From NCBI RefSeq assembly GCF_013315695.1, contig NZ_CP054353.1: a stretch of 64,000 nt of DNA; one strand, written 5' to 3'. Positions 1-40,185 of the stretch are shown piece after piece. Below the pieces are notes generated by a model. The model searched no databases and had not been told where the DNA came from. It saw nothing but the letters and a program-made list of their open reading frames with translations. A program made the translations under genes and the position numbers. Source of the DNA: Escherichia coli. GTDB taxonomy: Bacteria > Pseudomonadota > Gammaproteobacteria > Enterobacterales > Enterobacteriaceae. The stretch's first letter is position 1. Each line of letters opens with the position of its first letter.

Positions 1-899
<899 letters not shown>

Positions 900-967
900 C
901 CTTAAAGAAGCGTACTTTGAAGTGCTCACACAGATTGTCTGATGAAAATGAGCAGTAAAACCTCTAC

Positions 968-1044
<77 letters not shown>

Positions 1045-1086
1045 AATTTGCACCGCAAATTTGAAGAGGTTTTAACTACATGTTAT

Positions 1087-1162
1087 GGGGCTATAGCTCA
1101 GCTGGGAGAGCGCCTGCTTTGCACGCAGGAGGTCTGCGGTTCGATCCCGCATAGCTCCACCA
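1087..1162 (+). tRNA. alaV: tRNA-Ala (anticodon TGC), 16S-23S spacer
   Basis: GGGGCTATAGCTCAGCTGGGAGAGCGCCTGCTTTGCACGCAGGAGGTCTGCGGTTCGATCCCGCATAGCTCCACCA, 76 nt. Confidence 0.96.
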
Positions 1163-1345
1163 TCTCTGTAGTGATTAAATAAAAAATACTTCAGAGTGTA
1201 CCTGCAAAGGTTCACTGCGAAGTTTTGCTCTTTAAAAATCTGGATCAAGCTGAAAATTGAAACACTGAACAACGAAAGTTGTTCGTGAGTCTCTCAAATT
1301 TTCGCAACACGATGATGAGTCGAAAGAAACATCTTCGGGTTGTGA

Positions 1346-4249
<2,904 letters not shown>

Positions 4250-4343
4250 ACAACGCCGAAGATGTTTTGGCGGAAGAGACATCGATAAGTAAGCTTGATA
4301 ACAGATTAAATCAGAACGCAGAAGTGGTCTGATAAACAGAATT

Positions 4344-4463
4344 TGCCTGGCGGCCTTAGCGCGGTGGTCCCACCTGACCCCATGCCGAACTCAGAAGTGA
4401 AACGCCGTAGCGCCGATGGTAGTGTGGGGTCTCCCCATGCGAGAGTAGGGAACTGCCAGGCAT
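4344..4463 (+). rRNA. rrfH: 5S ribosomal RNA
   Basis: TGCCTGGCGGCC...GGGAACTGCCAGGCAT, 120 nt. Confidence 0.96.
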
Positions 4464-4515
4464 CAAATTAAGCAGTAAGCCGGTCATAAAACCGGTGGTT
4501 GTAAAAGAATTCGGT

Positions 4516-4592
4516 GGAGCGGTAGTTCAGTCGGTTAGAATACCTGCCTGTCACGCAGGGGGGCGCGGGTTCGAGTCCCGTCCGTTCCGCCA
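4516..4592 (+). tRNA. aspU: tRNA-Asp (anticodon GTC), distal tRNA of the rRNA operon
   Basis: GGAGCGGTAGTTCAGTCGGTTAGAATACCTGCCTGTCACGCAGGGGGGCGCGGGTTCGAGTCCCGTCCGTTCCGCCA; differs by one base (G at 4562) from the second tRNA-Asp copy at 13517..13593. Confidence 0.93.
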
Positions 4593-4602
4593 CTTATTAA
4601 GA

Positions 4603-4632
4603 AGCCTCGAGTTAACGCTCGAGGTTTTTTTT
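4603..4632 (+). terminator. Rho-independent terminator of the rRNA operon
   Basis: Hairpin CCTCGAG-ttaacg-CTCGAGG followed by T8. Confidence 0.75.
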
Positions 4633-5272
4633 CGTCTATATTTCTATTATTGCTTAAATCGCAAAAATCCTCTGCGTTTTACGCCCTTTTTCCGCAACAT
4701 TCTAAAGCCCATAATCACTTCAGTTAACGAAAATAGCATTAAAAGAGGCATATTATGGCTATCCCTGCATTTGGTTTAGGTACTTTCCGTCTGAAAGACG
4801 ACGTTGTTATTTCATCTGTGAAAACGGCGCTAGAACTTGGTTATCGCGCAATTGATACCGCACAAATCTATGATAACGAAGCCGCAGTAGGTCAGGCGAT
4901 TGCAGAAAGTGGCGTGCCGCGTCATGAACTCTACATCACCACTAAAATCTGGATTGAAAATCTCAACAAAGCTAAATTGATCCCGAGTCTGAAAGAGAGC
5001 CTGCAAAAATTGCGTACCGATTATGTTGATCTGACGCTAATCCACTGGCCGTCACCAAACGATGAAGTCTCTGTTGAAGAGTTTATGCAGGCGCTGCTGG
5101 AAGCCAAAAAACATGGGCTGACGCGTGAGATCGGTATTTCCAACTTCACGATCCCATTGATGGAAAAAGCGATTGCTGCTGTTGGCGCTGAAAACATCGC
5201 TACTAACCAGATTGAACTCTCTCCTTATCTGCAAAACCGTAAAGTGGTCGCTTGGGCTAAACAGCACGGCAT

Positions 5273-20143: not shown

Positions 20144-20422
20144 TTACCCAAAGAGCGCCGCGTGAGTTCCAGTTCTCTCAAATCGTAAAAGTTTATCGGT
20201 AAGTTTGTAAATCAGGATCCAGTCCGGTTCGACATGAGCATCGCGATAACCTTTCCATGAACCTTGCAGCGGGTGGTCTTTATAAACAGCTGGAAGCAGT
20301 AAAGTATTATTGATAAGAAGCGTCATAAGATATTTCAATTTATTCATATCCTTATGACGCTTTTGTGCAAGTTTTACATCCTTTGAAAATTGTCCCGAGT
20401 ATTCAATATCCCTTTGAATCAT
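20144..20422 (-). CDS. yafQ: Toxin YafQ (ribosome-dependent mRNA endoribonuclease, RelE family)
   Basis: 92 aa MIQRDIEYSGQFSKDVKLAQKRHKDMNKL...; immediately downstream of dinJ. Confidence 0.92.
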   Translation of the reverse strand: MIQRDIEYSGQFSKDVKLAQKRHKDMNKLKYLMTLLINNTLLLPAVYKDHPLQGSWKGYRDAHVEPDWILIYKLTDKLLRFERTGTHAALFG

Positions 20423-20424
20423 AT

Positions 20425-20685
20425 TTAAATTCCTAATTTATCAAATAAATCATCGGCGTCTTTGGCCTTATGAACACCAACGCCAGCTTCGCTGTTTTTG
20501 ATTGATTGAATAGTTAATTGATTAGGCTCGCGTAAATCAAACGGCAATGCCTTTTCACGCGCGACCTTTGTGAGGGTTATGCGAACCAGGTCAGAGATGG
20601 TCAGCCCCATCCCGGCCAGTACGTCCGCCGCCTGATTCTTCAGATCTTCATCGATTCGGGCGCGAACAAACGCGTTAGCAGCCAT
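20425..20685 (-). CDS. dinJ: Antitoxin DinJ
   Basis: 86 aa MAANAFVRARIDEDLKNQAADVLAGMGLTISD... RHH antitoxin. Confidence 0.92.
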   Translation of the reverse strand: MAANAFVRARIDEDLKNQAADVLAGMGLTISDLVRITLTKVAREKALPFDLREPNQLTIQSIKNSEAGVGVHKAKDADDLFDKLGI

Positions 20686-29050: not shown

Positions 29051-30037
29051 ATGTCTGAACTTATTGCAACTGCCGCTTCCAGCATTAACGCTTTTACTCT
29101 GGCAAAGCGTGTCGCCGCCTTTAACGTGCCGGTGCTCATTCAGGGCGAAACCGGCGCGGGCAAAGAATGCGTGGCGAAATATATTCACACCGTAGCCTTT
29201 GGTGAAAATGAAAGCGCACCCTATGTCGGCGTGAACTGCGCGGCGATCCCGGAAAATATGCTGGAATCCACGCTATTTGGCTATGACAAAGGCGCATTTA
29301 CCGGCGCAATTGCCAGCGTGCCAGGAAAAATGGAACTGGCAAATAACGGCTCCTTATTGCTCGATGAAATTGGTGAAATGCCGCTGGCGCTACAGGCCAA
29401 AATATTACGCGTGTTGCAGGAACAACAGGTTGAGCGATTAGGCAGCAACCGACAAATCAAACTCAATTTTCGCCTGATTGCCTGCACCAATAAAAACCTG
29501 GAGCAGGAAGTTGCCGCCGGACGTTTTCGTGAAGATCTCTATTATCGTCTGGCGGTTATCCCTATTACCATGCCGCCACTGCGTGAACGCCTGAACGATA
29601 TTATTCCGCTGGCGGAGTCATTTATTAAAAAATACTCCACGGTGCTGGTGAAAAATATCACCCTGTCCGAATCCACCCGCCGTGCGCTGCTTAATTACCG
29701 CTGGCCCGGTAACGTGCGCCAACTGGAAAACGCCATTCAGCGGGGAATGATTTTAAATCGCGACGGCGTAATTTACCCGGATGCATTAGGCCTGCTGGAA
29801 ACGGACGTTGCTGACCACAGCGAACTGCAATGGCCTGTTCAGCCCGCCGTCCACATTGCCGAAACCAGCGATTTGGGCCAGCACGGACGAAGCGCGCAAT
29901 ATCAATATATCGCCGACCTGATGCGTAAATATCAGGGCAACCGCAGCAAAATCGCCGACCTGTTAGGCATTACCCCGCGCGCACTGCGCTATCGACTGGC
30001 CTCCATGCGCAAGCAAGGTATCGAAGTTTTCTCCTGA
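29051..30037 (+). CDS. lafK: Sigma-54-dependent transcriptional activator (AAA+ domain plus C-terminal HTH, no N-terminal receiver or sensor domain)
   Basis: 328 aa; Walker A GETGAGKE at residues ~32-39; GAFTGA sigma-54 contact motif; C-terminal Fis-type HTH. Confidence 0.88.
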   Translation: MSELIATAASSINAFTLAKRVAAFNVPVLIQGETGAGKECVAKYIHTVAFGENESAPYVGVNCAAIPENMLESTLFGYDKGAFTGAIASVPGKMELANNGSLLLDEIGEMPLALQAKILRVLQEQQVERLGSNRQIKLNFRLIACTNKNLEQEVAAGRFREDLYYRLAVIPITMPPLRERLNDIIPLAESFIKKYSTVLVKNITLSESTRRALLNYRWPGNVRQLENAIQRGMILNRDGVIYPDALGLLETDVADHSELQWPVQPAVHIAETSDLGQHGRSAQYQYIADLMRKYQGNRSKIADLLGITPRALRYRLASMRKQGIEVFS

Positions 30038-30051
30038 CCCGGAAGTTAAAA

Positions 30052-30393
30052 ATGAGCATTACCACAATCAACAGCACCATGCAGGCGCAAATCATGCAGG
30101 ACGTGCAGCGGATGCAGGCCAACGCCCAGGCACCGGTGCTGCCCGCCATGACCTTCAGTTCCACCGACCCGGACGTTTCGTTTAACCGCATTATGAGCGG
30201 TGCGCTCGGTCATGTTGACCAGTTCCAGCAGGTGGCGGAGCAGCAGCAAACGGCTGTCGACACGGGCAAAAGTGATGACCTTGCCGGGGCGATGATCGCC
30301 AGCCAGCAGGCGTCGCTCTCTTTCTCCGCGCTGGTGCAGGTGCGCAACAAAATCGCCACCGGATTTAACGATCTGATGAGTATGTCGATCTAA
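30052..30393 (+). CDS. lfiE: Flag-2 basal body protein, FliE homologue
   Basis: 113 aa. Confidence 0.85.
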   Translation: MSITTINSTMQAQIMQDVQRMQANAQAPVLPAMTFSSTDPDVSFNRIMSGALGHVDQFQQVAEQQQTAVDTGKSDDLAGAMIASQQASLSFSALVQVRNKIATGFNDLMSMSI

Positions 30394-30397
30394 CCCT

Positions 30398-32053
30398 ATG
30401 AATGCACAAATAAAGAAGTTAACCCAGGCGTTTCCGGCGTTTCGACTGCGTCTTGCAGATAACAAACGCTGGGCATTGATGGCGGGAGTGGGGCTTGCCG
30501 TTGCGGCGACGGCGATTATCGTCAGCGTACTGTGGACCGGTAATCGCGGCTACGTCTCGCTCTACGGACGCCAGGAAAATCTGCCCGTGTCGCAGATTGT
30601 CACCGTGCTGGATGGCGAAAAGCTCAGCTACCGCATCGACCCGCAAAGCGGGCAGATTCTGGTGCCGGAAGATGAACTGTCGAAAACGCGCATGACCCTT
30701 GCTGCCAAAGGCGTGCAGGCGATCTTGCCCAGCGGCTACGAGCTGATGGACAAAGACGAAGTGCTCGGCAGCAGCCAGTTCGTGCAGAACGTGCGCTACA
30801 AACGCAGCCTCGAAGGGGAGCTGGCGCAGAGCATTATGTCGCTGGACGCGGTGGAGAGCGCGCGGGTGCATCTGGCGCTCAACGAAGAGAGCTCGTTTGT
30901 GGTCAGCGATGAGCCGCAAAACAGCGCCTCGGTGGTGGTGCGTCTGCATTACGGCGCGAAGCTGAATATGGACCAGGTGAACGCCATTGTGCATCTGGTT
31001 TCCGGCAGCATTCCGGGGCTGCACGCCAGCAAAGTTAGCGTCGTCGATCAGGCGGGAAATCTGCTGACCGACGGCATTGGCGCGGGCGAAGCGGTTTCAG
31101 CCGCTACCCGTAAACGCGATCAGATCCTCAAAGATATTCAGGACAAAACCCGCGCCAGCGTGGCGAACGTGCTGGATTCGCTGGTCGGCAGCGGGAATTA
31201 CCGCGTCAGCGTCATGCCGGATCTCGACCTCAGTAATATCGATGAAACTCAGGAACACTACGGCGACGCGCCGAAAATCAACCGCGAAGAAAACGTGCTG
31301 GACAGCGATACCAATCAGGTGGCGATGGGTGTGCCCGGTTCGCTTAGCAACCGCCCGCCGGTTGCACCTAATCAGGTTACTAACGGCGCGATGCCCGCCG
31401 ACGAAAATCGCTCGCCGGAAGCCCTTTCGAAACACAGCGAAAGCAAGCGCGATTACTCTTACGACCGCAGCGTCCAGCATATTCAGCATCCCAGCTTTAC
31501 GGTGAAACGCCTCAACGTGGCGGTGGTGCTCAATCAAAACGCTCCGGCGCTGAAAAACTGGAAGCCGGAGCAGACCACGCAGCTTACCGCGCTGCTGAAC
31601 AATGCCGCCGGGATCGACGCGCAACGTGGAGACAATCTCACCTTATCGCTGCTTAACTTTGTCCCGCAGGCGGTGCCGGTCGAACCAATTATTCCGTTGT
31701 GGAAAGATGACAGCGTGCTGGCCTGGGTGCGGCTGATTGGCTGCGGCCTGCTGGCGCTGTTGTTGCTGTTCTTTGTGGTGCGCCCGGTAATGAAACGACT
31801 GACGGCGGTACGTGCGCCGGTTATCACACCAGAACCGGAAGCTGTCAGCGAACCGTGGATTGCCATGCCGGAAGAGGAACGCAAAAACGTCGATCTGCCG
31901 TCGCTGCCCGGCGATGACAGCCTGCCGTCCCAGAGTTCCGGCCTCGAAGTAAAACTCGAGTTCCTGCAAAAACTGGCCATGAGCGACACCGATCGCGTAG
32001 CCGAAGTTCTCAGACAATGGATCACCAGCAATGAGCGAATTGACAACAAATAA
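30398..32053 (+). CDS. lfiF: Flag-2 MS-ring protein, FliF homologue
   Basis: 551 aa; N-terminal and C-terminal TM segments flanking a periplasmic ring-building domain. Confidence 0.9.
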   Translation: MNAQIKKLTQAFPAFRLRLADNKRWALMAGVGLAVAATAIIVSVLWTGNRGYVSLYGRQENLPVSQIVTVLDGEKLSYRIDPQSGQILVPEDELSKTRMTLAAKGVQAILPSGYELMDKDEVLGSSQFVQNVRYKRSLEGELAQSIMSLDAVESARVHLALNEESSFVVSDEPQNSASVVVRLHYGAKLNMDQVNAIVHLVSGSIPGLHASKVSVVDQAGNLLTDGIGAGEAVSAATRKRDQILKDIQDKTRASVANVLDSLVGSGNYRVSVMPDLDLSNIDETQEHYGDAPKINREENVLDSDTNQVAMGVPGSLSNRPPVAPNQVTNGAMPADENRSPEALSKHSESKRDYSYDRSVQHIQHPSFTVKRLNVAVVLNQNAPALKNWKPEQTTQLTALLNNAAGIDAQRGDNLTLSLLNFVPQAVPVEPIIPLWKDDSVLAWVRLIGCGLLALLLLFFVVRPVMKRLTAVRAPVITPEPEAVSEPWIAMPEEERKNVDLPSLPGDDSLPSQSSGLEVKLEFLQKLAMSDTDRVAEVLRQWITSNERIDNK

Positions 32054-33041
32054 GAGCAACAGCTACCTGGAACAGGCGGCGATCCTGCTGCTGTGTCTGG
32101 GCGAAGAGGCGGCGGCAACGGTGATGCAAAAACTCAGCCGTGAAGAAGTGGTGCGCCTGAGCGAAAACATGGCGCGGCTTTCCGGTGTCAAAACCAGCAT
32201 GGCGCGCAAAGTGATCAACAACTTCTTTGATGAGTTCCGCGAACAGAGCGGGATCAATGGCGCGTCGCGATCTATGTTGCAGGGCATTCTCAACAAAGCG
32301 CTAGGCACCGAGATCGCCAGCAGCGTGATCAACGGCATCTACGGCGATGAGATCCGCTCGCGGATGGCGCGACTGCAATGGGTGGAACCGCGCCAGCTGG
32401 CGATGCTGATCTCCGAAGAGCATCTGCAATTGCAGGCAGTATTCCTCGCGTTTCTGACGCCGGAAATCTCGGCGGCGGTGCTCTCGTATCTCAATGAATC
32501 GGTGCAAAACGAAATTCTCTATCGGGTGGCGAAACTCAACGACGTCAACCGCGACGTGGTGGATGAACTGGACAGGCTGATTGAACGCGGCCTGTCGGTG
32601 CTTTCGGAGCACGGCTCGAAGGTGAAAGGCATCAAACAGGCGGCGGATATCGTCAACCGCTTCCAGGGCAACCAGCAGGTGATCCTCGACCAGATGCGCG
32701 AGCGCGACGAAGACGTGCTGGAGCAGCTTCAGGATGAGATGTACGACTTCTTTATCCTCAGCCGCCAGAACGAAGAGGTGCGTCGACGTCTGCTCGACGA
32801 AGTACCGATGGAAGACTGGGCGGTAGCGCTGAAAGGCACCGAAGCCCTGTTGCGCCGTTCCATTTACGCGGTGATGCCAAAACGTCAGGCGCAGCAACTG
32901 GAAGCGATCACCGCGCGTCTGGGGCCGGTGCCGGTCAGCCGTATCGAACAGATCCGCCGCGAAATCATGGGCATTGCCCGTGAACTGGAAGAGGCGGGCG
33001 AAATTCAGCTACAGCTCTTTGCGGAACAGACGGCGGAGTAA
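32031..33041 (+). CDS. lfiG: Flag-2 rotor/switch protein, FliG homologue
   Basis: 336 aa. Confidence 0.9.
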   Translation: MSELTTNKSNSYLEQAAILLLCLGEEAAATVMQKLSREEVVRLSENMARLSGVKTSMARKVINNFFDEFREQSGINGASRSMLQGILNKALGTEIASSVINGIYGDEIRSRMARLQWVEPRQLAMLISEEHLQLQAVFLAFLTPEISAAVLSYLNESVQNEILYRVAKLNDVNRDVVDELDRLIERGLSVLSEHGSKVKGIKQAADIVNRFQGNQQVILDQMRERDEDVLEQLQDEMYDFFILSRQNEEVRRRLLDEVPMEDWAVALKGTEALLRRSIYAVMPKRQAQQLEAITARLGPVPVSRIEQIRREIMGIARELEEAGEIQLQLFAEQTAE

Positions 33042-33043
33042 CC

Positions 33044-33754
33044 ATGACCATTGAAACACTGCGCGGGCGCTATCGCCTGCACCGTTTTCCGCCGCGCCAG
33101 CGTGCGGTGACCGGAGAACCGCTCACCGCCAGCATTAGCGCCGCCGATTACCAGCGCCAGTTGATGGACGGTTTTCAGGAAGGGCTGCAAAAAGGGTTTG
33201 CTCAGGGAATGACCGAAGGCCAGGAGCAGGGCTTTAGCGAAGGTCATCAACAAGGTTTTGCCGAGGGGCGACGCCAGGGCTACACCGAAGGCAGCCTCGC
33301 CGGGCAGCAGGAAGGGCGCAAACAGTTTGTTGACGCGGCACAGCCGCTGGAAGCCATCAGCGGAAAAGTGAACGACTTTCTCGCCCATATCGAACGCAAA
33401 CAGCGGGAAGATTTGCTGCAACTGGTGGAAAAAGTCACCCGCCAGGTGATCCGCTGCGAACTGGCGCTGCAACCGACGCAGTTGCTGGCGCTGGTGGAAG
33501 AGGCACTGGCGGCCTTCCCGGCAATGCCGGAGACCCTCCAAGTGATGCTAAGTACGGAAGAATTTAACCGCTTGCGCGACGCGGTGCCGGAAAAGGTCAG
33601 CGAATGGGGGCTGACGCCTTCGCCGGATCTGCCGCCGGGTGAATGCCGGGTGATCACCGATAAATCCGAACTGGATATCGGCTGCGAGCACCGCCTGGAA
33701 CAATGCATGACCGCGCTACAAGAGACGCTAACGCCGGAGTCACAGGGTGAGTGA
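33044..33754 (+). CDS. lfiH: Flag-2 export ATPase regulator, FliH homologue
   Basis: 236 aa; glycine-rich repeats GFAQGMTEGQEQGFSEGHQQGFAEGRRQGYTEG. Confidence 0.85.
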   Translation: MTIETLRGRYRLHRFPPRQRAVTGEPLTASISAADYQRQLMDGFQEGLQKGFAQGMTEGQEQGFSEGHQQGFAEGRRQGYTEGSLAGQQEGRKQFVDAAQPLEAISGKVNDFLAHIERKQREDLLQLVEKVTRQVIRCELALQPTQLLALVEEALAAFPAMPETLQVMLSTEEFNRLRDAVPEKVSEWGLTPSPDLPPGECRVITDKSELDIGCEHRLEQCMTALQETLTPESQGE

Positions 33755-35084
33755 TTTTTCCGCTTTCGATAACGCCCTGCGCTCGCTGGAGTCGATCCCG
33801 CTGGCCCGCGTCGCCGGGCGGCTGGTGCGCCTTAATGGCATCCTGCTGGAGAGCGTCGGCTGCCCGCTAATGACCGGGCAGCTGTGTCGCATCGAAAGCG
33901 CCAACCACACGCTTATCGACGCGCAGGCCGTAGGCTTTAATCGCGATATCACTTACTTAATGCCGTTTAAACAGCCGGTCGGCCTGATGGCGGGGGCGCG
34001 CGTCTTCCCGGAAGAAAAAGCCCACGACATCCTGATTGGCGAAAGCTGGTTAGGCCGCGTGGTTAACGGCCTCGGCGAACCGCTGGATGGCAAAGGCCGC
34101 CTGAACGGCAACGACCTTCTGCCGCCGCTGCCGCCGTCGGTTAATCCCTTAACCCGCCGTTCGGTGGACGAACCGCTGGACGTGGGCGTGAAAGCGATCA
34201 ACGGCCTGCTGACCATCGGCAAAGGCCAGCGTGTCGGGCTGATGGCGGGCAGCGGCGTCGGGAAAAGCGTGCTGCTGGGGATGATCACCCGCCAGACCAA
34301 AGCCGACATTGTGGTGGTCGGGTTGATTGGCGAACGCGGGCGCGAAGTAAAAGAGTTTATCGACCACTCGCTGGGCGCGGACGGGCTGGCAAAGTCTATC
34401 GTCGTCGTCGCGCCCGCCGATGAATCGCCGCTGATGCGCCTGAAAGCCACCGAACTGTGCCACTCCATCGCCGCCTGGTTTCGCGACCGCGGGCATCACG
34501 TTTTACTGCTGGTGGATTCCCTGACCCGTTACGCGATGGCCCAGCGGGAAATAGCTCTCTCGCTCGGCGAACCGCCCGCCACCAAAGGCTATCCGCCGTC
34601 GGCATTCGGCATGATCCCCAAACTGGTCGAGAGCGCAGGCAACAGCGAAAGCGCGGGATCGATGACCGCCATCTACACCGTGTTGGCGGAAGGCGACGAT
34701 CAGCAAGATCCGATTGTCGACTGCGCCCGTGCGGTGCTGGACGGGCATATCGTATTAACCCGCAAACTGGCGGAAGCGGGGCACTATCCGGCTATTGATA
34801 TCGGCCAGTCGATCAGCCGTTGCATGAATCAGGTGACCAGCCTGGAACATCAGCAATCCGCCCGTGCGTTAAAGCAAAACTACGCCGCGTATATGGAGAT
34901 CAAACCGCTGATCCCGCTCGGCGGCTACGTGGCAGGTGCCGACGCCAGCGTCGACAAAGCGGTAAAAATGTTCCCGGCTATCGAGCGTTTTTTGCGCCAG
35001 GAGATGCGCGAACCTGCCTCCCTGGAACTGGTGCAAAGCCGCCTGCAAATTCTCTTTCCTGGTGTCAAAAAGGCAGAACAGTAA
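33747..35084 (+). CDS. lfiI: Flag-2 flagellum-specific ATPase, FliI homologue
   Basis: 445 aa; Walker A GSGVGKS, F1/T3SS ATPase family. Confidence 0.93.
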   Translation: MSDFSAFDNALRSLESIPLARVAGRLVRLNGILLESVGCPLMTGQLCRIESANHTLIDAQAVGFNRDITYLMPFKQPVGLMAGARVFPEEKAHDILIGESWLGRVVNGLGEPLDGKGRLNGNDLLPPLPPSVNPLTRRSVDEPLDVGVKAINGLLTIGKGQRVGLMAGSGVGKSVLLGMITRQTKADIVVVGLIGERGREVKEFIDHSLGADGLAKSIVVVAPADESPLMRLKATELCHSIAAWFRDRGHHVLLLVDSLTRYAMAQREIALSLGEPPATKGYPPSAFGMIPKLVESAGNSESAGSMTAIYTVLAEGDDQQDPIVDCARAVLDGHIVLTRKLAEAGHYPAIDIGQSISRCMNQVTSLEHQQSARALKQNYAAYMEIKPLIPLGGYVAGADASVDKAVKMFPAIERFLRQEMREPASLELVQSRLQILFPGVKKAEQ

Positions 35085-35086
35085 CC

Positions 35087-35521
35087 ATGCGACAAATCAT
35101 CGACACCCTGGCGCAGTTGCAGCGCCTGCGGGATAAATCGGTCAAAGACAAAACCGTCGAGCTGGCAAAGCAAAAACAGATTTGTGCGGGTTATGACAAC
35201 AATATCAAAGCATTAGGCTACCTGGTGGAGAAAACATCTGCGGGCGCGGCAGCGTCGGTGGAATCGCTGAAAAACGTCAGCGACTACAAAGGCACCTTGC
35301 GCAAGGTGATCGCCTGGCAGGAGCAGGAAAAAACGCTGGCTAACATCAAAGCCACGCGAATGCAGAAAAACCTGACGGCGGCGGCGTGCGAAGAGAAAGT
35401 GGTGGCCCTGACGCTGGACGACAAACGCCGCGAGCAGCAAGAAAGTGCCACGGCGAAAGCGCAAAAAGCGGTGGATGACATCGCCGTCCAGTGCTGGCTG
35501 CGGCATAAGTTAGCGGAGTAG
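35087..35521 (+). CDS. lfiJ: Flag-2 export chaperone/stalk protein, FliJ homologue
   Basis: 144 aa coiled-coil protein starting at ATG 35087 right after lfiI stop. Confidence 0.8.
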   Translation: MRQIIDTLAQLQRLRDKSVKDKTVELAKQKQICAGYDNNIKALGYLVEKTSAGAAASVESLKNVSDYKGTLRKVIAWQEQEKTLANIKATRMQKNLTAAACEEKVVALTLDDKRREQQESATAKAQKAVDDIAVQCWLRHKLAE

Positions 35522-35523
35522 CC

Positions 35524-35928
35524 ATGAAAACGGTCATCACCTTCGGCACCTTCGATGTGTTTCATGTCGGTCATCTGCGCCTTTTACAACGCGCCCGCAC
35601 GCTGGGCGAACGGCTGCTGGTCGGCGTATCGTCCGACGCCTTAAATATCGCCAAAAAGGGCAGAGCACCGGTTTACCCTCAGGATGACCGCATGTCGATC
35701 ATCGCCGGGCTGGCGTGCGTGGATGGCGTATTTCTGGAGGAATCGCTGGAGCAGAAAGCGGAGTATCTGCGGGGGTACCGTGCGGATATTTTAGTGATGG
35801 GCGATGACTGGGCAGGAAAGTTTGACAGCTTCGCGTATATTTGTGAGGTAGTGTATTTCCCCCGCACGCCGTCGGTGTCGACGACGGGGATTATTGAGGT
35901 GATTAGGGGTAAATCAGCCACCTACTGA
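35524..35928 (+). CDS. Glycerol-3-phosphate cytidylyltransferase (TagD-like, makes CDP-glycerol)
   Basis: 134 aa MKTVITFGTFDVFHVGHLRLLQRA... with HxGH motif and ...VVYFPRTPSVSTTGIIEVI; start codon 2 nt after lfiJ stop with SD GGAG. Confidence 0.85.
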   Translation: MKTVITFGTFDVFHVGHLRLLQRARTLGERLLVGVSSDALNIAKKGRAPVYPQDDRMSIIAGLACVDGVFLEESLEQKAEYLRGYRADILVMGDDWAGKFDSFAYICEVVYFPRTPSVSTTGIIEVIRGKSATY

Positions 35929-35976
35929 TTTAATTCCCGCAGTGAGAGAAGATGATGCCGTTTGGCTATGTTAAAT

Positions 35977-36079
35977 ATGTTTAAAAAATCGCGTTTTTTC
36001 GACATATCCCCAAAACATGTCGATGGCATAAACGTATTCCAACGACATGTTTAAAAATCGCATTTTATCGACATATCCC
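35977..36079. repeat. Two copies of a ~34-bp imperfect direct repeat plus a 10-bp inverted repeat
   Basis: ATGTTTAAAAAATCGCGTTTTTTCGACATATCCC (35977..36010) and ATGTTTAAAAATCGCATTTTATCGACATATCCC (36047..36079); inverted arms AAACATGTCG 36013..36022 / CGACATGTTT 36043..36052. Confidence 0.7.
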
Positions 36080-38521
36080 TGACGATTCCTTGCCCGCCAA
36101 CGCCTCCACAATCACCATCGTCGCCCGTTCTCCCGCCTTGCCATCCATAAACGCATCGCAATAGTGATGACGAATCTTCGTAAGCCGCGCCTGCACCGCC
36201 CCCCAGTCAAACGCCTCTGACAACAAGTAACGCAACTCTGCCATATCATGAGCCACCGGCAATATTTCGCGGATTTGCTGATCGGCGCTCTCCGGCGTGG
36301 AGTAGCTTTTCTCGCCGTCGAGCAATTCACTCATGCCCGGAAAGTCGAGCAGGATCACCCGCTTATCAACGTGGATAGCATCGAAAATAAAGCCGCTGTT
36401 ATCGGTCAGCACGTAATCGGCCTTTGCCAGCAGCGCCAGCGTGTGACGGGCGGAGTCGGTGCGCTGTTTTAAATGCCTGCGAGCCAGGGCCAGCGATGCA
36501 GCTTCTTCCGGGCGCGAGCAGGTGCCGTGGTGCAGTTTGCAAATCAGGTTCACATCATCGCTTAAGCGCCCCAATTTTTCTGCCCAGTGGGGCAGGGAGC
36601 TTAATGCGCCAAACGTTGGGGCGTAGAGTACGGTGGGTTTACGCTCGTCCAGTTTGATATTTTCCGGCAACGCGCGGTCGAACGTGGCGTTATGCCAGGC
36701 GTCGAAGCGCGGGTTGCCGACCACTATTGCGTTGCTGAGGTGCGCCAGCGCCTGCTGGCTGTAGTGGCTGTAACACAAAATGCGCTGATAAAAACGGTTC
36801 CAGTCGGCGTGGTTCCACGTTTCTTTGGCTAAGCCGTACATGGCGCGAATGTTCAGGGGGGAAAGGCCACTGAGCGCAGGCGTGTGATAGGGGCTGACCA
36901 GGCATTTTACTCGCTGACCGTGTGCCTGCATTTCTGACAGACGCATACCTTTAAGCTGCGGATCGTCGATGTTTTTCAGTGTTTCCAGCATCTCATCCAG
37001 AAACGGTTTAAACACGCGGTCATTGATCACCAGTGTGCAGCTCTGCCCCTGCGCCTGCAGGGCGGTGATGATTGGGCGGTAGAGCGCGTAGTGGAATGAG
37101 GTTTCCATAAAAAAGCCGATGGTATCGGCGATAGGTAATGTAGATGGCTTGGTGGCTACGGGTAACTTATTGAAGTAGTGGTTAATGTTATCAGTCGCTT
37201 TTTTCTCGATATCACTAAAGCCCGGTCGCTGATAACAAAGGCTCGGGTAACAGGCCAGCCATTTGTCGGTGCGCAGCAGCGGCTGCCAGCCGTCTTCCAG
37301 CGAATGCTCATCGTTGTTCATCTGCTGCGCCAGCTGCGGGTAGTAGCGGCGGTTCACCAGATAAGCGCACACTTTGCGGCAGTCCCGCGCGTGCACCAGC
37401 CCAGGCAAACTTTTTAGCATCGTTCCCTGCGAAATTTCGCCGCCGAGGATCATCACCTGCCAGGGAATTTTCGCCAGGCTCGCCAGCAGCGCGTTCAGCA
37501 CCTGAATATGTTTCTCCTGTTTGAGAATAACCGCGTCATCTTCCAGCAGCAGGTAGTTTTGCCAGCCGCGTTGTTGCGCCAGACGCAGTGCCTGCAAGTG
37601 TGATTGCTGGCGGCCCCGTTGACCGTTTTCATTTTCACTGGCGGCAAGGCGGGTGATCTTCTCAGGAGGAATATGCAGCAATGTGAGTTCTTCACGGATC
37701 TGCTGTAAGCGATCCGGGCGTTTATCCAGATTCAGCAGAACGATCTGATCGATCGCCTGATGATGAGTGGCGTTATGCAGACTCAGATAAGCATTGCGGA
37801 GCAGCGGATCGCGGACGATATCCGTAAGCGTCGCGTTTACTGGCGTGCTGGCCCCGAGAATAAAGTCTTTATCAAAGGTGTTGTGGCTGTGCGAGATACA
37901 CAAAATCGTGCGCTCGCCGGGCAGTTGTAGCGGGTTAACGCTGAAATTGTCGGTGAAACTTTTCTCTTCGCCTAAATTGCAATCGTCATCGTAGCGGTGC
38001 TTTTTCAGGTAGTTACGGTGATAGCAAAAGGTGCCGTTGAGGATGTTATGCGGGCCGAAGCTGCGGCTTTGAAAGATGCGATTGATGTGGCTGTACCAGA
38101 TGGGGATCTGGTCGGAACCGGAGATGAGCGCCCGGTTTTTTTGCATCATAGCGATGGTGTAAGAGATTTTATCTGCCGGGTAGTAGTCGTCATCGTCCAT
38201 GCAGAGGATGTATTCGCCGCGCGCCAGTTCGTTGAGCATATTGCGTTTTTTGCCCAGCGGCAGTTTTTCCGGGTGATGGATGTAGCGGATGTTGAAGGCT
38301 TCCGGTGTGCCATTGGTCAGGCGGTCGATGATGTGTTGATGGCTTTGCGGGGAATCGTCGAGGATGATGAGTTCGCGGCGGTCTGCCGGGTAGTCCTGAT
38401 AGCGGTACATATAAAGCAGGTACGGCAGGAATGCGCTGCGGTTCCAGGTTGGCGTGACGACGCTGACGGACGGTTTTTCGCGCTGGGTGGCGAGTGTTTT
38501 GATAATGGTTGGTGTTGGCAT
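36065..38521 (-). CDS. Large multidomain glycosyltransferase: N-terminal GT2 domain, central GT25-like domain, C-terminal CDP-glycerol glycerophosphotransferase (TagB/TagF-like) domain
   Basis: GT2: VSVVTPTWNR...ILDDSP...CMDDDDYY; GT25-like: IVLLNLDKRPDRLQQI...YLLLEDDAVIL; TagF-like: VLYAPTFGALSS...VLTDNSGFIFDA; start set to ATG 38521 (MPTPTII), track start 38593 is GTG inside a repeat. Confidence 0.75.
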   Translation of the reverse strand: MPTPTIIKTLATQREKPSVSVVTPTWNRSAFLPYLLYMYRYQDYPADRRELIILDDSPQSHQHIIDRLTNGTPEAFNIRYIHHPEKLPLGKKRNMLNELARGEYILCMDDDDYYPADKISYTIAMMQKNRALISGSDQIPIWYSHINRIFQSRSFGPHNILNGTFCYHRNYLKKHRYDDDCNLGEEKSFTDNFSVNPLQLPGERTILCISHSHNTFDKDFILGASTPVNATLTDIVRDPLLRNAYLSLHNATHHQAIDQIVLLNLDKRPDRLQQIREELTLLHIPPEKITRLAASENENGQRGRQQSHLQALRLAQQRGWQNYLLLEDDAVILKQEKHIQVLNALLASLAKIPWQVMILGGEISQGTMLKSLPGLVHARDCRKVCAYLVNRRYYPQLAQQMNNDEHSLEDGWQPLLRTDKWLACYPSLCYQRPGFSDIEKKATDNINHYFNKLPVATKPSTLPIADTIGFFMETSFHYALYRPIITALQAQGQSCTLVINDRVFKPFLDEMLETLKNIDDPQLKGMRLSEMQAHGQRVKCLVSPYHTPALSGLSPLNIRAMYGLAKETWNHADWNRFYQRILCYSHYSQQALAHLSNAIVVGNPRFDAWHNATFDRALPENIKLDERKPTVLYAPTFGALSSLPHWAEKLGRLSDDVNLICKLHHGTCSRPEEAASLALARRHLKQRTDSARHTLALLAKADYVLTDNSGFIFDAIHVDKRVILLDFPGMSELLDGEKSYSTPESADQQIREILPVAHDMAELRYLLSEAFDWGAVQARLTKIRHHYCDAFMDGKAGERATMVIVEALAGKESSGICR

Positions 38522-38570
38522 GGTGTTTGGGTGAGTTAATGGGTGAATGTGATGAATGTGCGTGCTGATG

Positions 38571-38684
38571 CCCTCACCCCGACCCTCTCCCACAGGGAGA
38601 GGGAGAAAACCAGCGCCGATTTTAACACCGTGCTCGATCGGTTCCCTCGCCCCTTTGGGGAGAGGGTTAGGGGGAGGGGAAAAG
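38571..38684. repeat. GC-rich composite palindromic intergenic repeat (CCCTCTCCC/GGGAGAGGG and GGTGAGGG-type motifs)
   Basis: Perfect hairpin CCCTCTCCC-aca-GGGAGAGGG at 38583..38603 and CCCTCGCCCCTTTGGGGAGAGGGTTAGGGGGAGGGG at 38644..38679; related copy at 18402..18436. Confidence 0.6.
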
Positions 38685-38699
38685 CGCGCACAGAGCGAC

Positions 38700-39629
38700 T
38701 CACGTCAGCAGCGAAAATGCTGACAGCAGCGGCTCTGCCGCACATAACGACTGGAGCTGCTGGCGAATCGCCGCAGCATTTTCACTCTCTCGCCAGCGTT
38801 CAAACACCGCAAAAAGGGCGAAAATATCCTCCTTCCGCAGCGGTGAACCATCCAGCGTCCATAAACTGATTAACGTGCGGATGAGATAAAAATCACACAC
38901 CAGCGGGCAATAATCTGCTCCGTCTGCCTGCCCAATCACGTCGTGATAAACGCGGTAAATCAGCCAGTTGCGCATCATCCACGGCGCGGCGGCAAAATGC
39001 TGTTGCCAGGTGGTTTGCCACTGCACCTTAAGCTGCTGTTGCAACAAAGCTTCGCTGTTGGCGTCATGCAACGTCAGCAAAGTCACCTGCAACGGTAGCG
39101 AGGCTTTGCGCGGGCTTTCCGGCAAAATCGACCAGTCAAACGCAAAACTCCCGAGCAGCGTCACCAGTTGGCGCGCCAGTTGTGGCACGGGTGGGAGTTG
39201 GGCGAACTGTGCCTGTAGCGTGCCTTTTTGTGCATGATCCCCCAGCGCCTGTGGCAGCGTCGTCAAGCGGGCAAGAATATCTCCGTCTCTGCCCGGCATT
39301 TTACTGGCGCGGGAGAGCAAAATCCCGACGGCATACAGGGAAAGCTCCGGGGTTAAATCGGGGAGCGTAAGGGTGCTCAAAATGGCCTGGTTTACTATCG
39401 CATCGCGCGCGGATAGCTCGGCGGCATTGTCTTCCACAGGGCGGTAGGTGAGCTGTAAATCAAAGGCCCTGGCATCGTTGAGCACCGCTTTGCAACTTTC
39501 AATATCGGTCAATGCCAGGCTCTGGCGAATCTCATTCTTCCAGACCTTGCGGACGTACAAAGGCGAATCGGGATATTGCGTCATAAAATTGCGCACGTAT
39601 TCCGGTTCGTAACATTCAATAAAACTCAT
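38700..39629 (-). CDS. Hypothetical protein, Flag-2 internal, function unknown
   Basis: 309 aa from ATG 39629 (MSFIECYEPEYVRNF...); no motif I can recognise; track ORF starts at upstream TTG 39668. Confidence 0.6.
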   Translation of the reverse strand: MSFIECYEPEYVRNFMTQYPDSPLYVRKVWKNEIRQSLALTDIESCKAVLNDARAFDLQLTYRPVEDNAAELSARDAIVNQAILSTLTLPDLTPELSLYAVGILLSRASKMPGRDGDILARLTTLPQALGDHAQKGTLQAQFAQLPPVPQLARQLVTLLGSFAFDWSILPESPRKASLPLQVTLLTLHDANSEALLQQQLKVQWQTTWQQHFAAAPWMMRNWLIYRVYHDVIGQADGADYCPLVCDFYLIRTLISLWTLDGSPLRKEDIFALFAVFERWRESENAAAIRQQLQSLCAAEPLLSAFSLLT

Positions 39630-39756
39630 AGGTGGCTTCCAGTCTTTATTACTTTGCGGAATGTGCAATAAGCGTGCCGGGAATTTTTGTAATCAAAAAC
39701 AAGGGATTGAGAATCAGGCGGAAAATCCGTTTCCGCGATGGGGGAAGGAATTGTCG

Positions 39757-40185
39757 TTATTCCTGGTACAGAAAATCTGTTTCGCCGCCTAAAAAAAACT
39801 GAATAAATTCATACTGGCGAATCAACAGCTCGCCGTTTTTGTCGTTGTAGGCTTTGCAGCGTTCCGCTTTTTGCTCAAGGCGTTGCCACAACTGTTGTGC
39901 TGCTGCTTTTTGCACAGCCGGAAGCCAGGCAAAAACCTGCGCCAGACCGTCACGATTTACACTGACATTAAGCATTTTCAGCAGGCTGTGCCGCTGATGG
40001 CTATGCCCATGCAACTGTTCATAGTGCTGCGTTATCTCGTCGTTTACCGCCAGCAGATCTTCGCTGGCGCGGCGAATCATGCAGATCCGCTGACGCTGGA
40101 GAAGTTCGCGCAGGGAATCGTACAGTGCGTCGTCGTCACGAATGCCCTGCAACAACGCCTTCACCTGTTGTAACCGGATACTCAC
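39757..40185 (-). CDS. lfgN: Flag-2 export chaperone, FlgN homologue
   Basis: 142 aa; GTG start with SD AAGAGG overlapping the lfgM stop; position downstream of flgM homologue. Confidence 0.78.
   Translation of the reverse strand: MSIRLQQVKALLQGIRDDDALYDSLRELLQRQRICMIRRASEDLLAVNDEITQHYEQLHGHSHQRHSLLKMLNVSVNRDGLAQVFAWLPAVQKAAAQQLWQRLEQKAERCKAYNDKNGELLIRQYEFIQFFLGGETDFLYQE

What the first reader, a model, noticed from the sequence alone, without database searches (positions are those of the whole stretch)
33180..33300. Glycine-rich GFxxG(M/H/R)TEG repeats in the FliH homologue
Four consecutive repeats (GFAQGMTEG, GFSEGHQQG, GFAEGRRQG, YTEGSLAG) form the AxxxG-type helix-helix motif known from FliH and YscL. 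Repeat number may vary and affect ATPase-complex geometry.
Basis: partly seen in the sequence, partly recalled or inferred. Interest (0 to 1): 0.25.

Follow-up and report, generated by a model that had tools for sequence, protein, structure and literature searches.

The report
Known glycine-repeat helix in Flag-2 FliH
This is the already described glycine-every-fourth-residue (GxxxG) tract of the flagellar export protein FliH, here in the second (Flag-2, lateral-type) flagellar cluster of E. coli; it is real and unusually long (13 glycines), but it is ordinary for this protein family and fixed in length across E. coli.

Summary
ORF 33044-33754 (+), 236 aa, is FliH of the E. coli Flag-2 cluster, lying between fliG and fliI. 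Residues 43-91 (nt 33170-33316) carry 13 glycines at exact i,i+4 spacing, which is 12 consecutive GxxxG units. In 100,000 shuffles of the protein the longest chain was 6. They miss three glycines and skip a GQEQ unit.

This is the FliH/YscL glycine-repeat motif of Trost & Moore 2009. That paper cites an E. coli 53638 FliH with "a repeat of length 12" as the longest then seen, almost certainly this protein.

AlphaFold2 puts the tract inside one helix (residues 33-140). No solved structure covers it.

Length variation is only weakly supported. None of 1275 complete E. coli genomes has a deletion of 32 nt or more, and 60 sampled rows show no indel. The 13 glycines persist down to about 59% identity. 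Rare in-frame deletions (16 and 44 aa, between short DNA direct repeats) occur in two non-coli Escherichia isolates. Across the wider family, chains reach 37 glycines.

Any effect on ATPase-complex geometry is untested. Verdict: already known, low interest.

The parts
33044..33754 (+). fliH of the Flag-2 (lateral-type) flagellar cluster (lfiH in the Flag-2 nomenclature), 236 aa, ATG start 3 nt after the fliG stop; its last 8 nt overlap the GTG start of fliI
   Evidence: ORF list. Pfam FliH PF02108 E 4e-25. NCBIfam NF009925 at 316.9 bits, cut-off 192. RefSeq annotates the identical 711 nt as fliH, WP_000151515.1.
33170..33325 (+). Glycine-repeat tract: 13 Gxxx units, residues 43-94, with glycines at 43, 47 ... 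91 (12 consecutive GxxxG). It parses as GFQEGLQK GFAQGMTE GQEQ GFSEGHQQ GFAEGRRQ GYTEGSLA GQQEGRKQ.
   Evidence: Shuffles never exceed a chain of 6. G43-G55 and G63-G83 are invariant and G59 is 56/57 in 57 homologues down to 50% identity.
33044..33139 (+). N-terminal segment, residues 1-32, predicted unstructured. It contains a conserved peptide (R11, H13, F15, P16, P17 invariant or nearly so) that is the likely C-ring (FliN-type) anchor.
   Evidence: AF2 pLDDT is below 50 for residues 1-10 and 16-28. Conservation list. The anchor role is inferred from Salmonella FliH and injectisome SctL biology as summarised in PMC6248999.
33140..33463 (+). Single predicted alpha-helix, residues 33-140 (about 162 A if ideal). 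It contains the glycine tract and continues into the segment equivalent to the Salmonella FliH dimerisation helix.
   Evidence: AF2 with a 57-sequence alignment. DSSP gives helix 33-140. Mean pLDDT per 10-residue block is 85-86 for residues 41-70, 78 for 71-90 and 90-93 for 91-120. Length computed.
33335..33706 (+). FliH family domain (Pfam PF02108), residues 98-221: C-terminal part of the long helix plus the globular FliI-binding domain
   Evidence: phmmer hit to Salmonella FliH chain 5b0o_E over query residues 121-220. Foldseek top hits are 5b0o_E/F/G.
33227..33291 (+). Pair of imperfect 17-nt direct repeats 48 nt apart (CAGGGCTTTAGCGAAGG at 33227-33243, CAGGGCTACACCGAAGG at 33275-33291). 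The 48-nt (16-aa, 4-unit) in-frame deletion of the 220-aa allele of Escherichia sp. 20412-1 lies between them.
   Evidence: the repeat finder family D1. Alignment of L002 to the window. Intact fliE-fliJ context for L002.
33176..33317 (+). Pair of exact 10-nt direct repeats CAGGAAGGGC (33176-33185 and 33308-33317) 132 nt apart. The 132-nt (44-aa, 11-unit) in-frame deletion of the 192-aa allele of Escherichia sp. 93.0743 lies between them.
   Evidence: Sequence read. Alignment of L003. Intact gene context for L003.
32031..33041 (+). fliG (Flag-2), immediately upstream
   Evidence: Pfam FliG_N, FliG_M and FliG_C.
33747..35084 (+). fliI (Flag-2 export ATPase), immediately downstream; the binding partner of FliH
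   Evidence: Pfam ATP-synt_ab and T3SS_ATPase_C.

Best explanation
The tract is the FliH-family glycine-repeat segment, (GxxxG)12, of the Flag-2 FliH protein.

Shown here:
- It is coding sequence of a bona fide FliH, lying between fliG and fliI.
- It has 13 glycines in perfect 4-residue register with an octad sub-pattern G-[FY]-x-[EQ]-G-x-x-[QK].
- It aligns to the equivalent 8-glycine tract of the primary (Flag-1) E. coli FliH.
- Both the glycine positions and their number are under purifying selection.

Inferred:
- The tract forms about 74 A of a single long alpha-helix (residues 33-140).
- That helix sits between an N-terminal C-ring-binding peptide and the dimerisation helix plus FliI-binding globular domain.
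- It is therefore part of the shaft of the FliH2 'spoke', the stator-stalk-like arm that tethers the FliI ATPase hub to the C ring.
- The small glycine face, flanked by aromatic x1 residues, would allow very close helix-helix packing in the FliH dimer. The alternating E and K/Q at x3 would give i,i+4 side-chain pairs that offset the low helix propensity of glycine.
- By analogy with Salmonella FliH, where deleting residues 60-100 relieves inhibition of FliI, the segment probably also contributes to regulating the ATPase.
- The number of units sets the length of this shaft segment. That number is fixed in the Flag-2 lineage and is not a strain-variable feature.
For: Identity:
- Pfam FliH E 4e-25 and NCBIfam FliH equivalog above cut-off.
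- fliF-fliG-fliH-fliI-fliJ gene order.
- 100% nucleotide identity to the annotated fliH of E. coli ECCNB12-2.

Repeat:
- 13 glycines at residues 43-91, against a maximum chain of 6 in 1e5 shuffles.
- Aligns to the K-12 FliH repeat A51xxxG55...G83xxxA87.
- The motif class is described in PMC2674601, which also reports an E. coli 53638 FliH with 12 GxxxG.

Helix:
- AF2 predicts a continuous helix 33-140 with pLDDT 78-86 across the tract.
- Composition is Q11, E7, A3, K2, R3 among 39 non-Gly residues.

Stalk-like architecture:
- Foldseek hits are Salmonella FliH 5b0o (E 1e-4), then full-length alignments to V/A-ATPase peripheral-stalk subunit E (3v6i_A E 1e-3, 6wm2_H and others).

Spoke role:
- Cryo-ET shows FliH-dependent spokes between the FliI hub and the C ring. 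The C-terminal domain binds FliI, a central region dimerises, and the N-terminus binds FliN (PMC6248999).

Constraint:
- 10 of the 13 glycines are invariant and G59 is 56/57 in 57 homologues at 50-98% identity, while x positions reach 3 bits of entropy.
- 13 glycines are kept in nearly all full-length orthologues at about 59-98% identity; a few replace one or two with Ala.
- Four of five E. coli alleles have an identical tract with only 3-4 synonymous differences. A divergent allele changes 8 x positions and no glycine. pN/pS is 0.17.
- 1275 of 1275 E. coli genomes have no large deletion.

ATPase regulation:
- Salmonella deletion data as summarised in PMC2674601.
Against: - No experimental structure of any FliH or SctL glycine tract exists. 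5b0o covers only query residues 121-220, and a search with the tract alone finds only low-complexity chance hits.
- The AF2 model is a monomer with pTM 0.39, so it says nothing about helix-helix contacts.
- A 4.0-residue period does not fit a canonical straight interface on a 3.6-residue helix. The glycine stripe would drift +40 degrees per unit, 480 degrees over the tract. A single continuous dimer interface along all 13 glycines would need an unusually tight right-handed supercoil or a distorted helix.
- In-frame deletion alleles lacking 4 or 11 of the units exist in isolates with otherwise intact neighbouring genes, so a full-length tract may not be strictly essential. Whether those Flag-2 systems work is unknown.
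- Whether Flag-2 is expressed at all in E. coli is not established by anything examined here.
Confidence: 0.72

Rival explanations
1. The tract is a flexible, largely disordered glycine-rich linker rather than a helix. It would give the ATPase hub freedom to move relative to the C ring.
For: - Glycine is a poor helix former, and 25% of the tract is Gly.
- The tract is absent from the only solved FliH structure.
- pLDDT dips to 78 for residues 71-90.
- No FliH spokes were resolved in E. coli or Salmonella external flagella by cryo-ET, which is compatible with flexibility (PMC6248999).
Against: - AF2 predicts an uninterrupted helix with pLDDT 78-86, whereas the truly disordered N-terminus scores below 50.
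- Strict 4-residue register, conserved aromatic x1 and alternating E/K-Q at x3 are features of a structured helical face. Disordered linkers tolerate indels of any size and do not keep register across 50% sequence divergence.
- Trost & Moore's secondary-structure predictions also gave helix (PMC2674601).
Confidence: 0.12
2. The tract is primarily a regulatory element that contacts FliI, or FliJ/FlhA, directly to inhibit ATP hydrolysis until docking, rather than a passive spacer or dimer interface. This is not exclusive of the main explanation.
For: In Salmonella FliH, deleting residues 60-100 (which hold the AxxxG(xxxG)mxxxA tract at 59-94) enhances FliI ATPase activity. Deleting residues 70-80 or 90-100 reduces the inhibition (PMC2674601 background).
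Against: - In the FliH2-FliI crystal the contacts are made by the C-terminal domain, and the construct lacks the tract.
- The effect of the deletions could be indirect, through changed dimer geometry.
- Family-wide length variation from 2 to 37 glycines is hard to reconcile with a specific docking surface on the highly conserved FliI.
Confidence: 0.2
3. The tract is a strain-variable (contingency-type) repeat whose copy number changes frequently by slippage and tunes or switches Flag-2 function.
For: - In-frame deletions of 12, 16 and 44 aa occur at short direct repeats within the tract in a few Escherichia sequences.
- A one-unit (SLAG) difference separates two Flag-2 clades.
Against: - There is no DNA-level tandem repeat, and the glycine codons are mixed.
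- 1275 of 1275 complete E. coli genomes lack any deletion of 32 nt or more, and 60 of 60 sampled rows lack any indel.
- No expansion beyond 13 is seen among the 120 closest homologue clusters.
- The amino-acid sequence of the tract is identical in 4 of 5 alleles that differ at 3-4 synonymous sites.
- Two of the deletion variants are single metagenome scaffolds that could be assembly artefacts.
Confidence: 0.03
4. The tract is a chance low-complexity region with no specific role.
For: None beyond its biased composition.
Against: - In 1e5 shuffles no chain exceeded 6, and only 3 reached 6.
- The glycines are invariant across 57 homologues.
- A homologous tract is present in Flag-1 FliH and throughout the family.
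Confidence: 0.01

Closest known systems
AxxxG(xxxG)mxxxA glycine-repeat segment of FliH (Trost & Moore 2009, PMC2674601), e.g. Salmonella FliH residues 59-94 and E. coli K-12 FliH residues 51-87
   Same: - Same protein family and same position, N-terminal to the FliH domain.
- Same 4-residue glycine register and same x-position preferences (Y/F/L at x1, E/Q/K/A elsewhere).
- The two tracts align directly.
- The paper already lists an E. coli 53638 FliH with 12 GxxxG, matching this protein's count.
   Different: - It is longer than the Flag-1 tract of the same species: 13 glycines against 8.
- It lacks both flanking alanines (Q39, F95).
- It has a clear octad sub-period.
- It belongs to a different NCBIfam equivalog (NF009925 rather than NF004266).
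YscL/SctL (injectisome stator protein) glycine repeats
   Same: Homologous family and the same motif type (PMC2674601). The window protein gives weak hits to HrpE/YscL models.
   Different: YscL proteins have only 0-2 GxxxG units (PMC2674601), against 12 here. SctL-specific models score far below their cut-offs for the window protein (27.8 bits against 159).
deca-GX3 motif of eukaryotic Yae1 and Lto1 (Pfam Yae1_N PF09811; Paul et al. 2015, PMC4523923)
   Same: - About ten glycines at 4-residue spacing in a soluble protein.
- Glycine mutations in Lto1 abolish Yae1-Lto1 complex formation. This is the only experimental support for such tracts mediating protein-protein association.
- The paper itself notes that the motif also occurs in FliH.
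- Pfam Yae1_N hits residues 67-93 here.
   Different: - The hit is below the gathering threshold (24.9 bits against 27.5).
- There is no homology outside the tract.
- Yae1 and Lto1 are heterodimeric adaptors for Fe-S cluster insertion, unrelated to secretion ATPases.
N-terminal helix of V/A-type ATPase peripheral-stalk subunit E (e.g. 3v6i_A, 6wm2_H)
   Same: Overall architecture of a long N-terminal helix plus a C-terminal globular head that binds the ATPase. These chains are the best full-length Foldseek matches after FliH itself. From my own knowledge (not checked here): the E-G stalk is a right-handed coiled coil, and a 4.0-residue stripe on an alpha-helix is also right-handed.
   Different: - Sequence identity is only 13-19% with high rmsd.
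- From my own knowledge (not tested here): subunit E has no glycine repeat.
- FliH is a homodimer rather than an E-G heterodimer.
- The 40 degrees per unit drift of the Gly stripe is much steeper than in hendecad-type right-handed coiled coils. The comparison figure is my own knowledge.
GxxxG dimerisation motif of transmembrane helices (glycophorin A type)
   Same: Glycines four residues apart allow close helix-helix approach. This is the origin of the 'helix-helix motif' idea (PMC2674601).
   Different: Those motifs span one to three units in hydrophobic membrane helices. Here there are 12 units in a soluble, highly polar helix.

Membership tests
FliH/SctL family (Pfam PF02108; NCBIfam FliH equivalogs) | Match to the family profile above the curated threshold | tested here: met
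   PF02108 at 88.6 bits against a cut-off of 24.1, residues 98-221. NF009925 at 316.9 bits against 192, covering residues 2-232 of 236.
FliH/SctL family (Pfam PF02108; NCBIfam FliH equivalogs) | Gene located between fliG and fliI in a flagellar export operon | tested here: met
   fliF 30398-32053, fliG 32031-33041, fliH 33044-33754, fliI 33747-35084 and fliJ downstream.
FliH/SctL family (Pfam PF02108; NCBIfam FliH equivalogs) | Fold: long helix plus C-terminal alpha/beta domain as in Salmonella FliH (5b0o) | tested here: met
   AF2 model with mean pLDDT 76. Foldseek top three hits are 5b0o_E/F/G with probability 1.00. This rests on a prediction, not an experiment.
FliH/SctL family (Pfam PF02108; NCBIfam FliH equivalogs) | Forms a dimer, binds the FliI N-terminus and binds FliN | not testable with these tools
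   Needs biochemistry.
FliH/YscL glycine-repeat motif AxxxG(xxxG)mxxxA (Trost & Moore 2009) | Run of consecutive GxxxG units N-terminal to the conserved C-terminal region | tested here: met
   12 consecutive GxxxG at residues 43-91, immediately before the Pfam domain that starts at residue 98.
FliH/YscL glycine-repeat motif AxxxG(xxxG)mxxxA (Trost & Moore 2009) | Flanking Axxx and xxxA | tested here: not met
   Position 39 is Q (Q/K/R in homologues) and position 95 is F (56/57 F). The paper reports that 5 of 44 repeat-bearing FliH sequences lack both alanines, so this feature is common but not obligatory.
FliH/YscL glycine-repeat motif AxxxG(xxxG)mxxxA (Trost & Moore 2009) | Aligns with the repeat of a reference FliH | tested here: met
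   BLASTP against K-12 FliH pairs query residues 49-91 with K-12 residues 53-87 (E 9e-12).
FliH/YscL glycine-repeat motif AxxxG(xxxG)mxxxA (Trost & Moore 2009) | Predicted alpha-helical, with x positions rich in E/Q/K/A and Y/F/L at x1 | tested here: met
   AF2 helix 33-140. x1 = FLFMQFHFRYSQR, x3 = EKQEQEQEQEAEQ.
FliH/YscL glycine-repeat motif AxxxG(xxxG)mxxxA (Trost & Moore 2009) | Mediates helix-helix association | not testable with these tools
   No solved structure contains such a tract. The structure tool returns no coordinates and models monomers only.
deca-GX3 / Yae1_N (Pfam PF09811) | Match to PF09811 above the gathering score | tested here: not met
   24.9 bits against a cut-off of 27.5, residues 67-93. 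Many orthologues carry a precomputed PF09811 hit. This is a resemblance of motif, not family membership.
Enterobacterial Flag-2 (secondary, lateral-type) flagellar locus | Complete second flagellar cluster with lafA flagellin, lafU/motA stator genes, a sigma-54 activator and its own fliA-type sigma factor, at the chromosomal site between yafL/rayT and dinB | tested here: met
   RefSeq annotation of the identical record: flhA through lafU, with lafA, a sigma-54-interaction-domain protein and a FliA/WhiG sigma factor. The locus type is described in PMC6993521.
DNA tandem repeat / contingency locus | Head-to-tail DNA repeats with copy-number polymorphism between strains | tested here: not met
   TRF returns 0 rows. 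1275 of 1275 E. coli genomes have no large deletion and 60 of 60 sampled rows have no indel.

The most novel reading that the evidence does not exclude
The glycine tract acts as a length-quantised 'ruler' segment of the FliH spoke, at about 6 A per GxxxG unit. Its unit number would be matched to the radial distance between the ATPase hub and the C ring of a given motor type.

This would explain three observations made here:
- The Flag-2 lineage holds exactly 13 glycines over 40% sequence divergence.
- The primary E. coli system holds 8.
- Uncultured bacteria carry FliH proteins with 17-37 glycines in perfect register. One of them is verified to sit next to fliG in two independent assemblies.

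The naturally occurring 4-unit and 11-unit in-frame deletion alleles in non-coli Escherichia would then be ready-made tests of the idea.
Probability: 0.25. Interest if true: 0.45.

Novelty: already known. Interest (0 to 1): 0.13.

Why it matters
It matters little as a discovery. The motif, its presence in FliH and YscL, its variable length across species, and a 12-unit E. coli example were all published in 2009.

What remains open is structural. No solved structure shows what a long soluble GxxxG tract looks like or does, either in FliH or in the eukaryotic Yae1/Lto1 adaptors.

The E. coli Flag-2 protein is a convenient long example. This analysis adds three points:
- Its length is fixed within E. 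coli.
- Its length and glycine register are under purifying selection across genera.
- Rare natural in-frame deletion alleles exist, along with very long (up to 37-glycine) metagenomic relatives. These could be used to test whether tract length sets export-apparatus geometry.

Tried and rejected
- DNA-level repeat. Tandem Repeats Finder at minimum score 30 found nothing at 33000-33800. The repeat finder found only two imperfect 16-17 nt families. The periodicity is therefore a protein-level feature, not a recent DNA duplication.
- Solved structure of the tract. phmmer of the whole protein and of residues 34-105 against all PDB chains gave only the Salmonella FliH C-terminal fragment and low-complexity or chance hits such as MepR, a HAD-like hydrolase and Plasmodium repeats.
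- Other strand and RNA. There is no Rfam match at E <= 1 in 30000-37000 on either strand. The two antisense ORFs overlapping the tract (33005-33541 and 33280-33708, minus strand) have no Pfam match. I treat them as the usual spurious ORFs opposite a GC-rich gene.
- Direct confirmation that GenBank EDU66533 (E. coli 53638) is this protein. The accession is not in the paper's supplements and not among the 15 listed cluster members. The identification rests on inference: Flag-1 FliH has 7 GxxxG in K-12 and the Flag-2 FliH has 12, the number the paper reports.
- A linked pseudo-dimer AF2 run was considered and not run. The tool returns no coordinates or inter-chain confidence, so it could not show helix-helix contacts.
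- Contingency-locus reading: rejected (see rivals).
- Two of the four deletion variants (L004 at 224 aa, L005 at 199 aa) are single short metagenome scaffolds with no clean microhomology. I do not rely on them.
Full report
**What is at the coordinates**

The reported span 33180-33300 lies inside a 236-codon ORF, 33044-33754 on the + strand. The ORF starts 3 nt after the stop of a fliG gene (32031-33041). Its last 8 nt overlap the start of a fliI ATPase gene (33747-35084). fliF lies upstream and fliJ downstream.

The protein matches Pfam FliH (PF02108, E 4e-25, residues 98-221). It also matches the NCBIfam FliH equivalog NF009925 end to end (316.9 bits, cut-off 192).

The 711 nt are 100% identical to the annotated fliH of E. 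coli ECCNB12-2, NZ_CP033635.1. The annotation of that record shows that the window holds a complete second flagellar cluster between rayT and dinB. The cluster runs from flhA to lafU and includes lafA flagellin, a sigma-54 activator and its own FliA-type sigma factor. This is the Flag-2, or lateral-type, locus described for Enterobacterales (PMC6993521).

**Checking the observation**

The real feature is larger and simpler than described.

- Glycines occupy residues 43, 47, 51 ... 91 without a single miss. That is 13 glycines, or 12 consecutive GxxxG (nt 33170-33316, with the last unit ending at 33325).
- The tract reads GFQE GLQK GFAQ GMTE GQEQ GFSE GHQQ GFAE GRRQ GYTE GSLA GQQE GRKQ.
- In 100,000 shuffles of the protein the longest glycine chain at 4-residue spacing was 6, against 13 observed.
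Non-glycine identities are 9/33 at lag 8, against 1/36 at lag 4.
- The four units are not strictly consecutive, because GQEQ intervenes. One octad on each side was missed.
- The flanking positions are Q39 and F95, not alanine, so 'AxxxG-type' is only loosely right.
- At the DNA level there is no tandem repeat and the glycine codons are mixed.

**Is it the known FliH repeat?**

Yes. Trost & Moore (2009, PMC2674601) described AxxxG(xxxG)mxxxA tracts in FliH and its injectisome homologue YscL. They reported 0-10 GxxxG in their filtered FliH set and 0-2 in YscL. [quoted passage not shown]

In K-12 the primary E. coli FliH has A51xxxG55...G83xxxA87, which is 8 glycines and 7 GxxxG. The Flag-2 protein has exactly 12. 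The published example is therefore almost certainly this protein. This is an inference, because I could not retrieve the accession.

BLASTP aligns the tract with the glycine tract of K-12 FliH (E 9e-12).

The x-position preferences match the published description. x1 is aromatic or aliphatic, and E/Q/K dominate x3. Pfam's Yae1_N model, the eukaryotic 'deca-GX3' motif, hits residues 67-93 just below threshold. The Yae1/Lto1 paper itself notes the same motif in FliH (PMC4523923).

**Does the repeat number vary?**

Within E. coli it does not.

- The gene is present in 1276 of 5426 complete genomes.
- A 156-nt query spanning the tract finds 1275 genomes, and every one covers at least 80% of it. 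No deletion of 32 nt or more exists in that set. All 60 rows sampled across the ranking are gap-free.
- Five alleles were compared codon by codon. Four have an identical tract, differing only at 3-4 synonymous sites.
- The fifth allele (strain 06-00048) is divergent. It changes eight x positions and no glycine.

Among orthologues the count is also stable.

- Nearly all full-length proteins from Citrobacter, Pseudescherichia, Atlantibacter, Siccibacter and others, at about 59-98% identity, keep all 13 register positions. A few replace one or two glycines with Ala.
- A more distant group at 50-57% identity has 12 positions, lacking the SLAG unit, and often has Ala at the last one.
- Ten of the 13 glycines are invariant in a 57-sequence alignment, while x positions are highly variable.
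- No homologue among the closest 120 clusters has more than 13.

Variation does exist as rare in-frame deletions.

- A 220-aa allele occurs in Escherichia sp. 20412-1. It lacks 16 aa, or 4 units.
- A 192-aa allele occurs in Escherichia sp. 93.0743. It lacks 44 aa, or 11 units.
- Both sit in otherwise intact fliE-fliJ contexts.
- The junctions lie between short direct repeats created by the repeated codon pattern. One pair is a 17-nt imperfect repeat at 33227 and 33275. The other is an exact 10-nt CAGGAAGGGC at 33176 and 33308.
- Two further variants are single metagenome scaffolds that I do not trust.

Across the wider family the range is large. I ran an exhaustive phmmer search of 1.84 billion representatives. 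Among the best 150 hits, FliH proteins carry 16-37 glycines in perfect register. This sample is biased by the repeat-rich query. The 37-glycine protein is encoded directly after fliG in two independent assemblies. Thirteen glycines is no longer the family maximum.

**Structure and likely mechanism**

AlphaFold2 with the 57-sequence alignment predicts the following:

- a disordered N-terminus (residues 1-32, pLDDT below 50) that holds a conserved R-x-H-x-F-P-P peptide;
- one uninterrupted helix from residue 33 to 140, with pLDDT 78-86 across the tract;
- a C-terminal globular domain.

Foldseek matches Salmonella FliH (5b0o) first. It then gives full-length matches to the peripheral-stalk subunit E of V/A-ATPases. 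This is in line with the published view of FliH as a stator-stalk homologue.

Cryo-ET work shows FliH-dependent spokes linking the FliI hub to the C ring. In that picture the N-terminus binds FliN, a central region dimerises and the C-terminus binds FliI (PMC6248999). Placed in that framework, the glycine tract is about 74 A of the spoke shaft, lying between the C-ring anchor and the dimerisation and ATPase-binding module. This placement is inference.

The proposed role of the glycine face in tight helix-helix packing rests on two analogies. One is transmembrane GxxxG motifs. The other is Lto1, where glycine mutations abolish binding to Yae1. It has never been shown for FliH.

A caveat from simple geometry applies. 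A 4.0-residue stripe drifts 40 degrees per unit on an ideal helix, which is 480 degrees over the tract. One continuous straight interface is therefore unlikely without strong right-handed supercoiling or helix distortion.

Salmonella deletion data implicate the equivalent region (residues 60-100) in inhibition of FliI ATPase (PMC2674601). A regulatory contribution is plausible and is not exclusive of the spacer role.

**Rivals**

- A disordered linker is disfavoured by the strict register, the conserved x1 and x3 pattern and the confident helix prediction.
- A contingency-type variable repeat is rejected by the absence of a DNA tandem repeat and by invariance across 1275 genomes.
- Chance is excluded by the shuffles and the conservation.

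**Other strand and RNA**

Nothing was found there. There is no Rfam hit, and the antisense ORFs have no family match.

**Verdict**

It is speculative about function and largely wrong about strain-level variability. The feature is already in the literature, including this very 12-unit E. coli example, so novelty is 'already known' and interest is low.

The residual interest is the unsolved structure of long soluble GxxxG tracts. There is also a possibility, which I put at about 25%, that tract length acts as a ruler for spoke length. The natural deletion alleles and the very long metagenomic FliH proteins would be useful material for testing that.

Noticed in passing
window 22458-61742: A complete Flag-2 (lateral-type) flagellar cluster runs from flhA to lafU. 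It lies between rayT (yafM) and dinB, and no gene in it is flagged as a pseudogene in the identical RefSeq record. The fliH gene of this cluster is present in 1276 of 5426 complete E. coli genomes, about 23.5%.
   Followed up: partly
P0182/P0284 (L009 and L010, 5001-6242), P0183, P0199, P0226: Metagenomic FliH homologues have far longer perfect glycine chains than any reported in 2009: 37, 33, 26 and 26 glycines at i,i+4 spacing, and several others have 16-18. The 37-glycine protein (413 aa) follows fliG in two independent assemblies, but a proton-antiporter subunit gene follows it rather than fliI.
   Followed up: partly
L011 3657-6080 (P0227): An 807-aa protein has 68 glycines in one unbroken GxxxG register (GYNSG/GxTDG type). 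It is encoded immediately downstream of a phage portal gene on a phage-like contig. It was picked up only through its repeat, and its function is unknown.
   Followed up: no
L002 3001-3663 and L003 3001-3579 (equivalent to window 33044-33754): Natural in-frame deletion alleles of Flag-2 fliH occur in Escherichia sp. 20412-1 (16 aa lost) and Escherichia sp. 93.0743 (44 aa lost). The breakpoints lie in short direct repeats within the glycine tract, and the neighbouring genes are intact.
   Followed up: yes
L014 478-1188 (E. coli 06-00048, NZ_CP015229.1): This strain carries a markedly divergent Flag-2 fliH allele, 87% identical in the repeat region against about 97% for other E. coli. Its tract resembles cluster P0010 (QLKD...GFEQ...GIDQGFLEGHQKGFEDG), which suggests import of the locus or gene from another Escherichia lineage.
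   Followed up: partly
window 33165-33320 compared with 33044-33754: Within E. coli the repeat-encoding DNA is more conserved than the gene as a whole. Typical identity to the window is 97.4% for the tract against about 94% for the full gene. Most genomes fall in the 95-99% band for the tract but in the 90-95% band for the gene.
   Followed up: partly
NZ_CP016404.1 (hit H20) and two plasmid records: One swine E. coli genome keeps only the 3' 295 nt of this fliH, annotated as a 'FliH/SctL family protein', which indicates a partly deleted Flag-2 locus. Two of the 1276 matches are on records labelled as plasmids.
   Followed up: no
window 20174-20451 and 63216-63615: The toxin genes yafQ (of dinJ-yafQ) and yafO (of yafN-yafO) flank the Flag-2 island. 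Both are annotated as frameshifted in the identical RefSeq record, while their antitoxin genes are intact.
   Followed up: no
window 35524-40054: This is the variable region between fliJ and flgN. It holds a cytidylyltransferase-like gene (35524-35928; Pfam CTP_transf_like), two hypothetical genes and a 2445-nt glycosyltransferase gene. That content matches the 'VR1' flagellin-glycosylation cargo described for Flag-2 loci (PMC6993521; annotation).
   Followed up: no
window 179-5271: A ribosomal RNA operon occupies the start of the window: 16S, tRNA-Ile, tRNA-Ala, 23S, 5S and tRNA-Asp, according to the annotation of the identical record.
   Followed up: no
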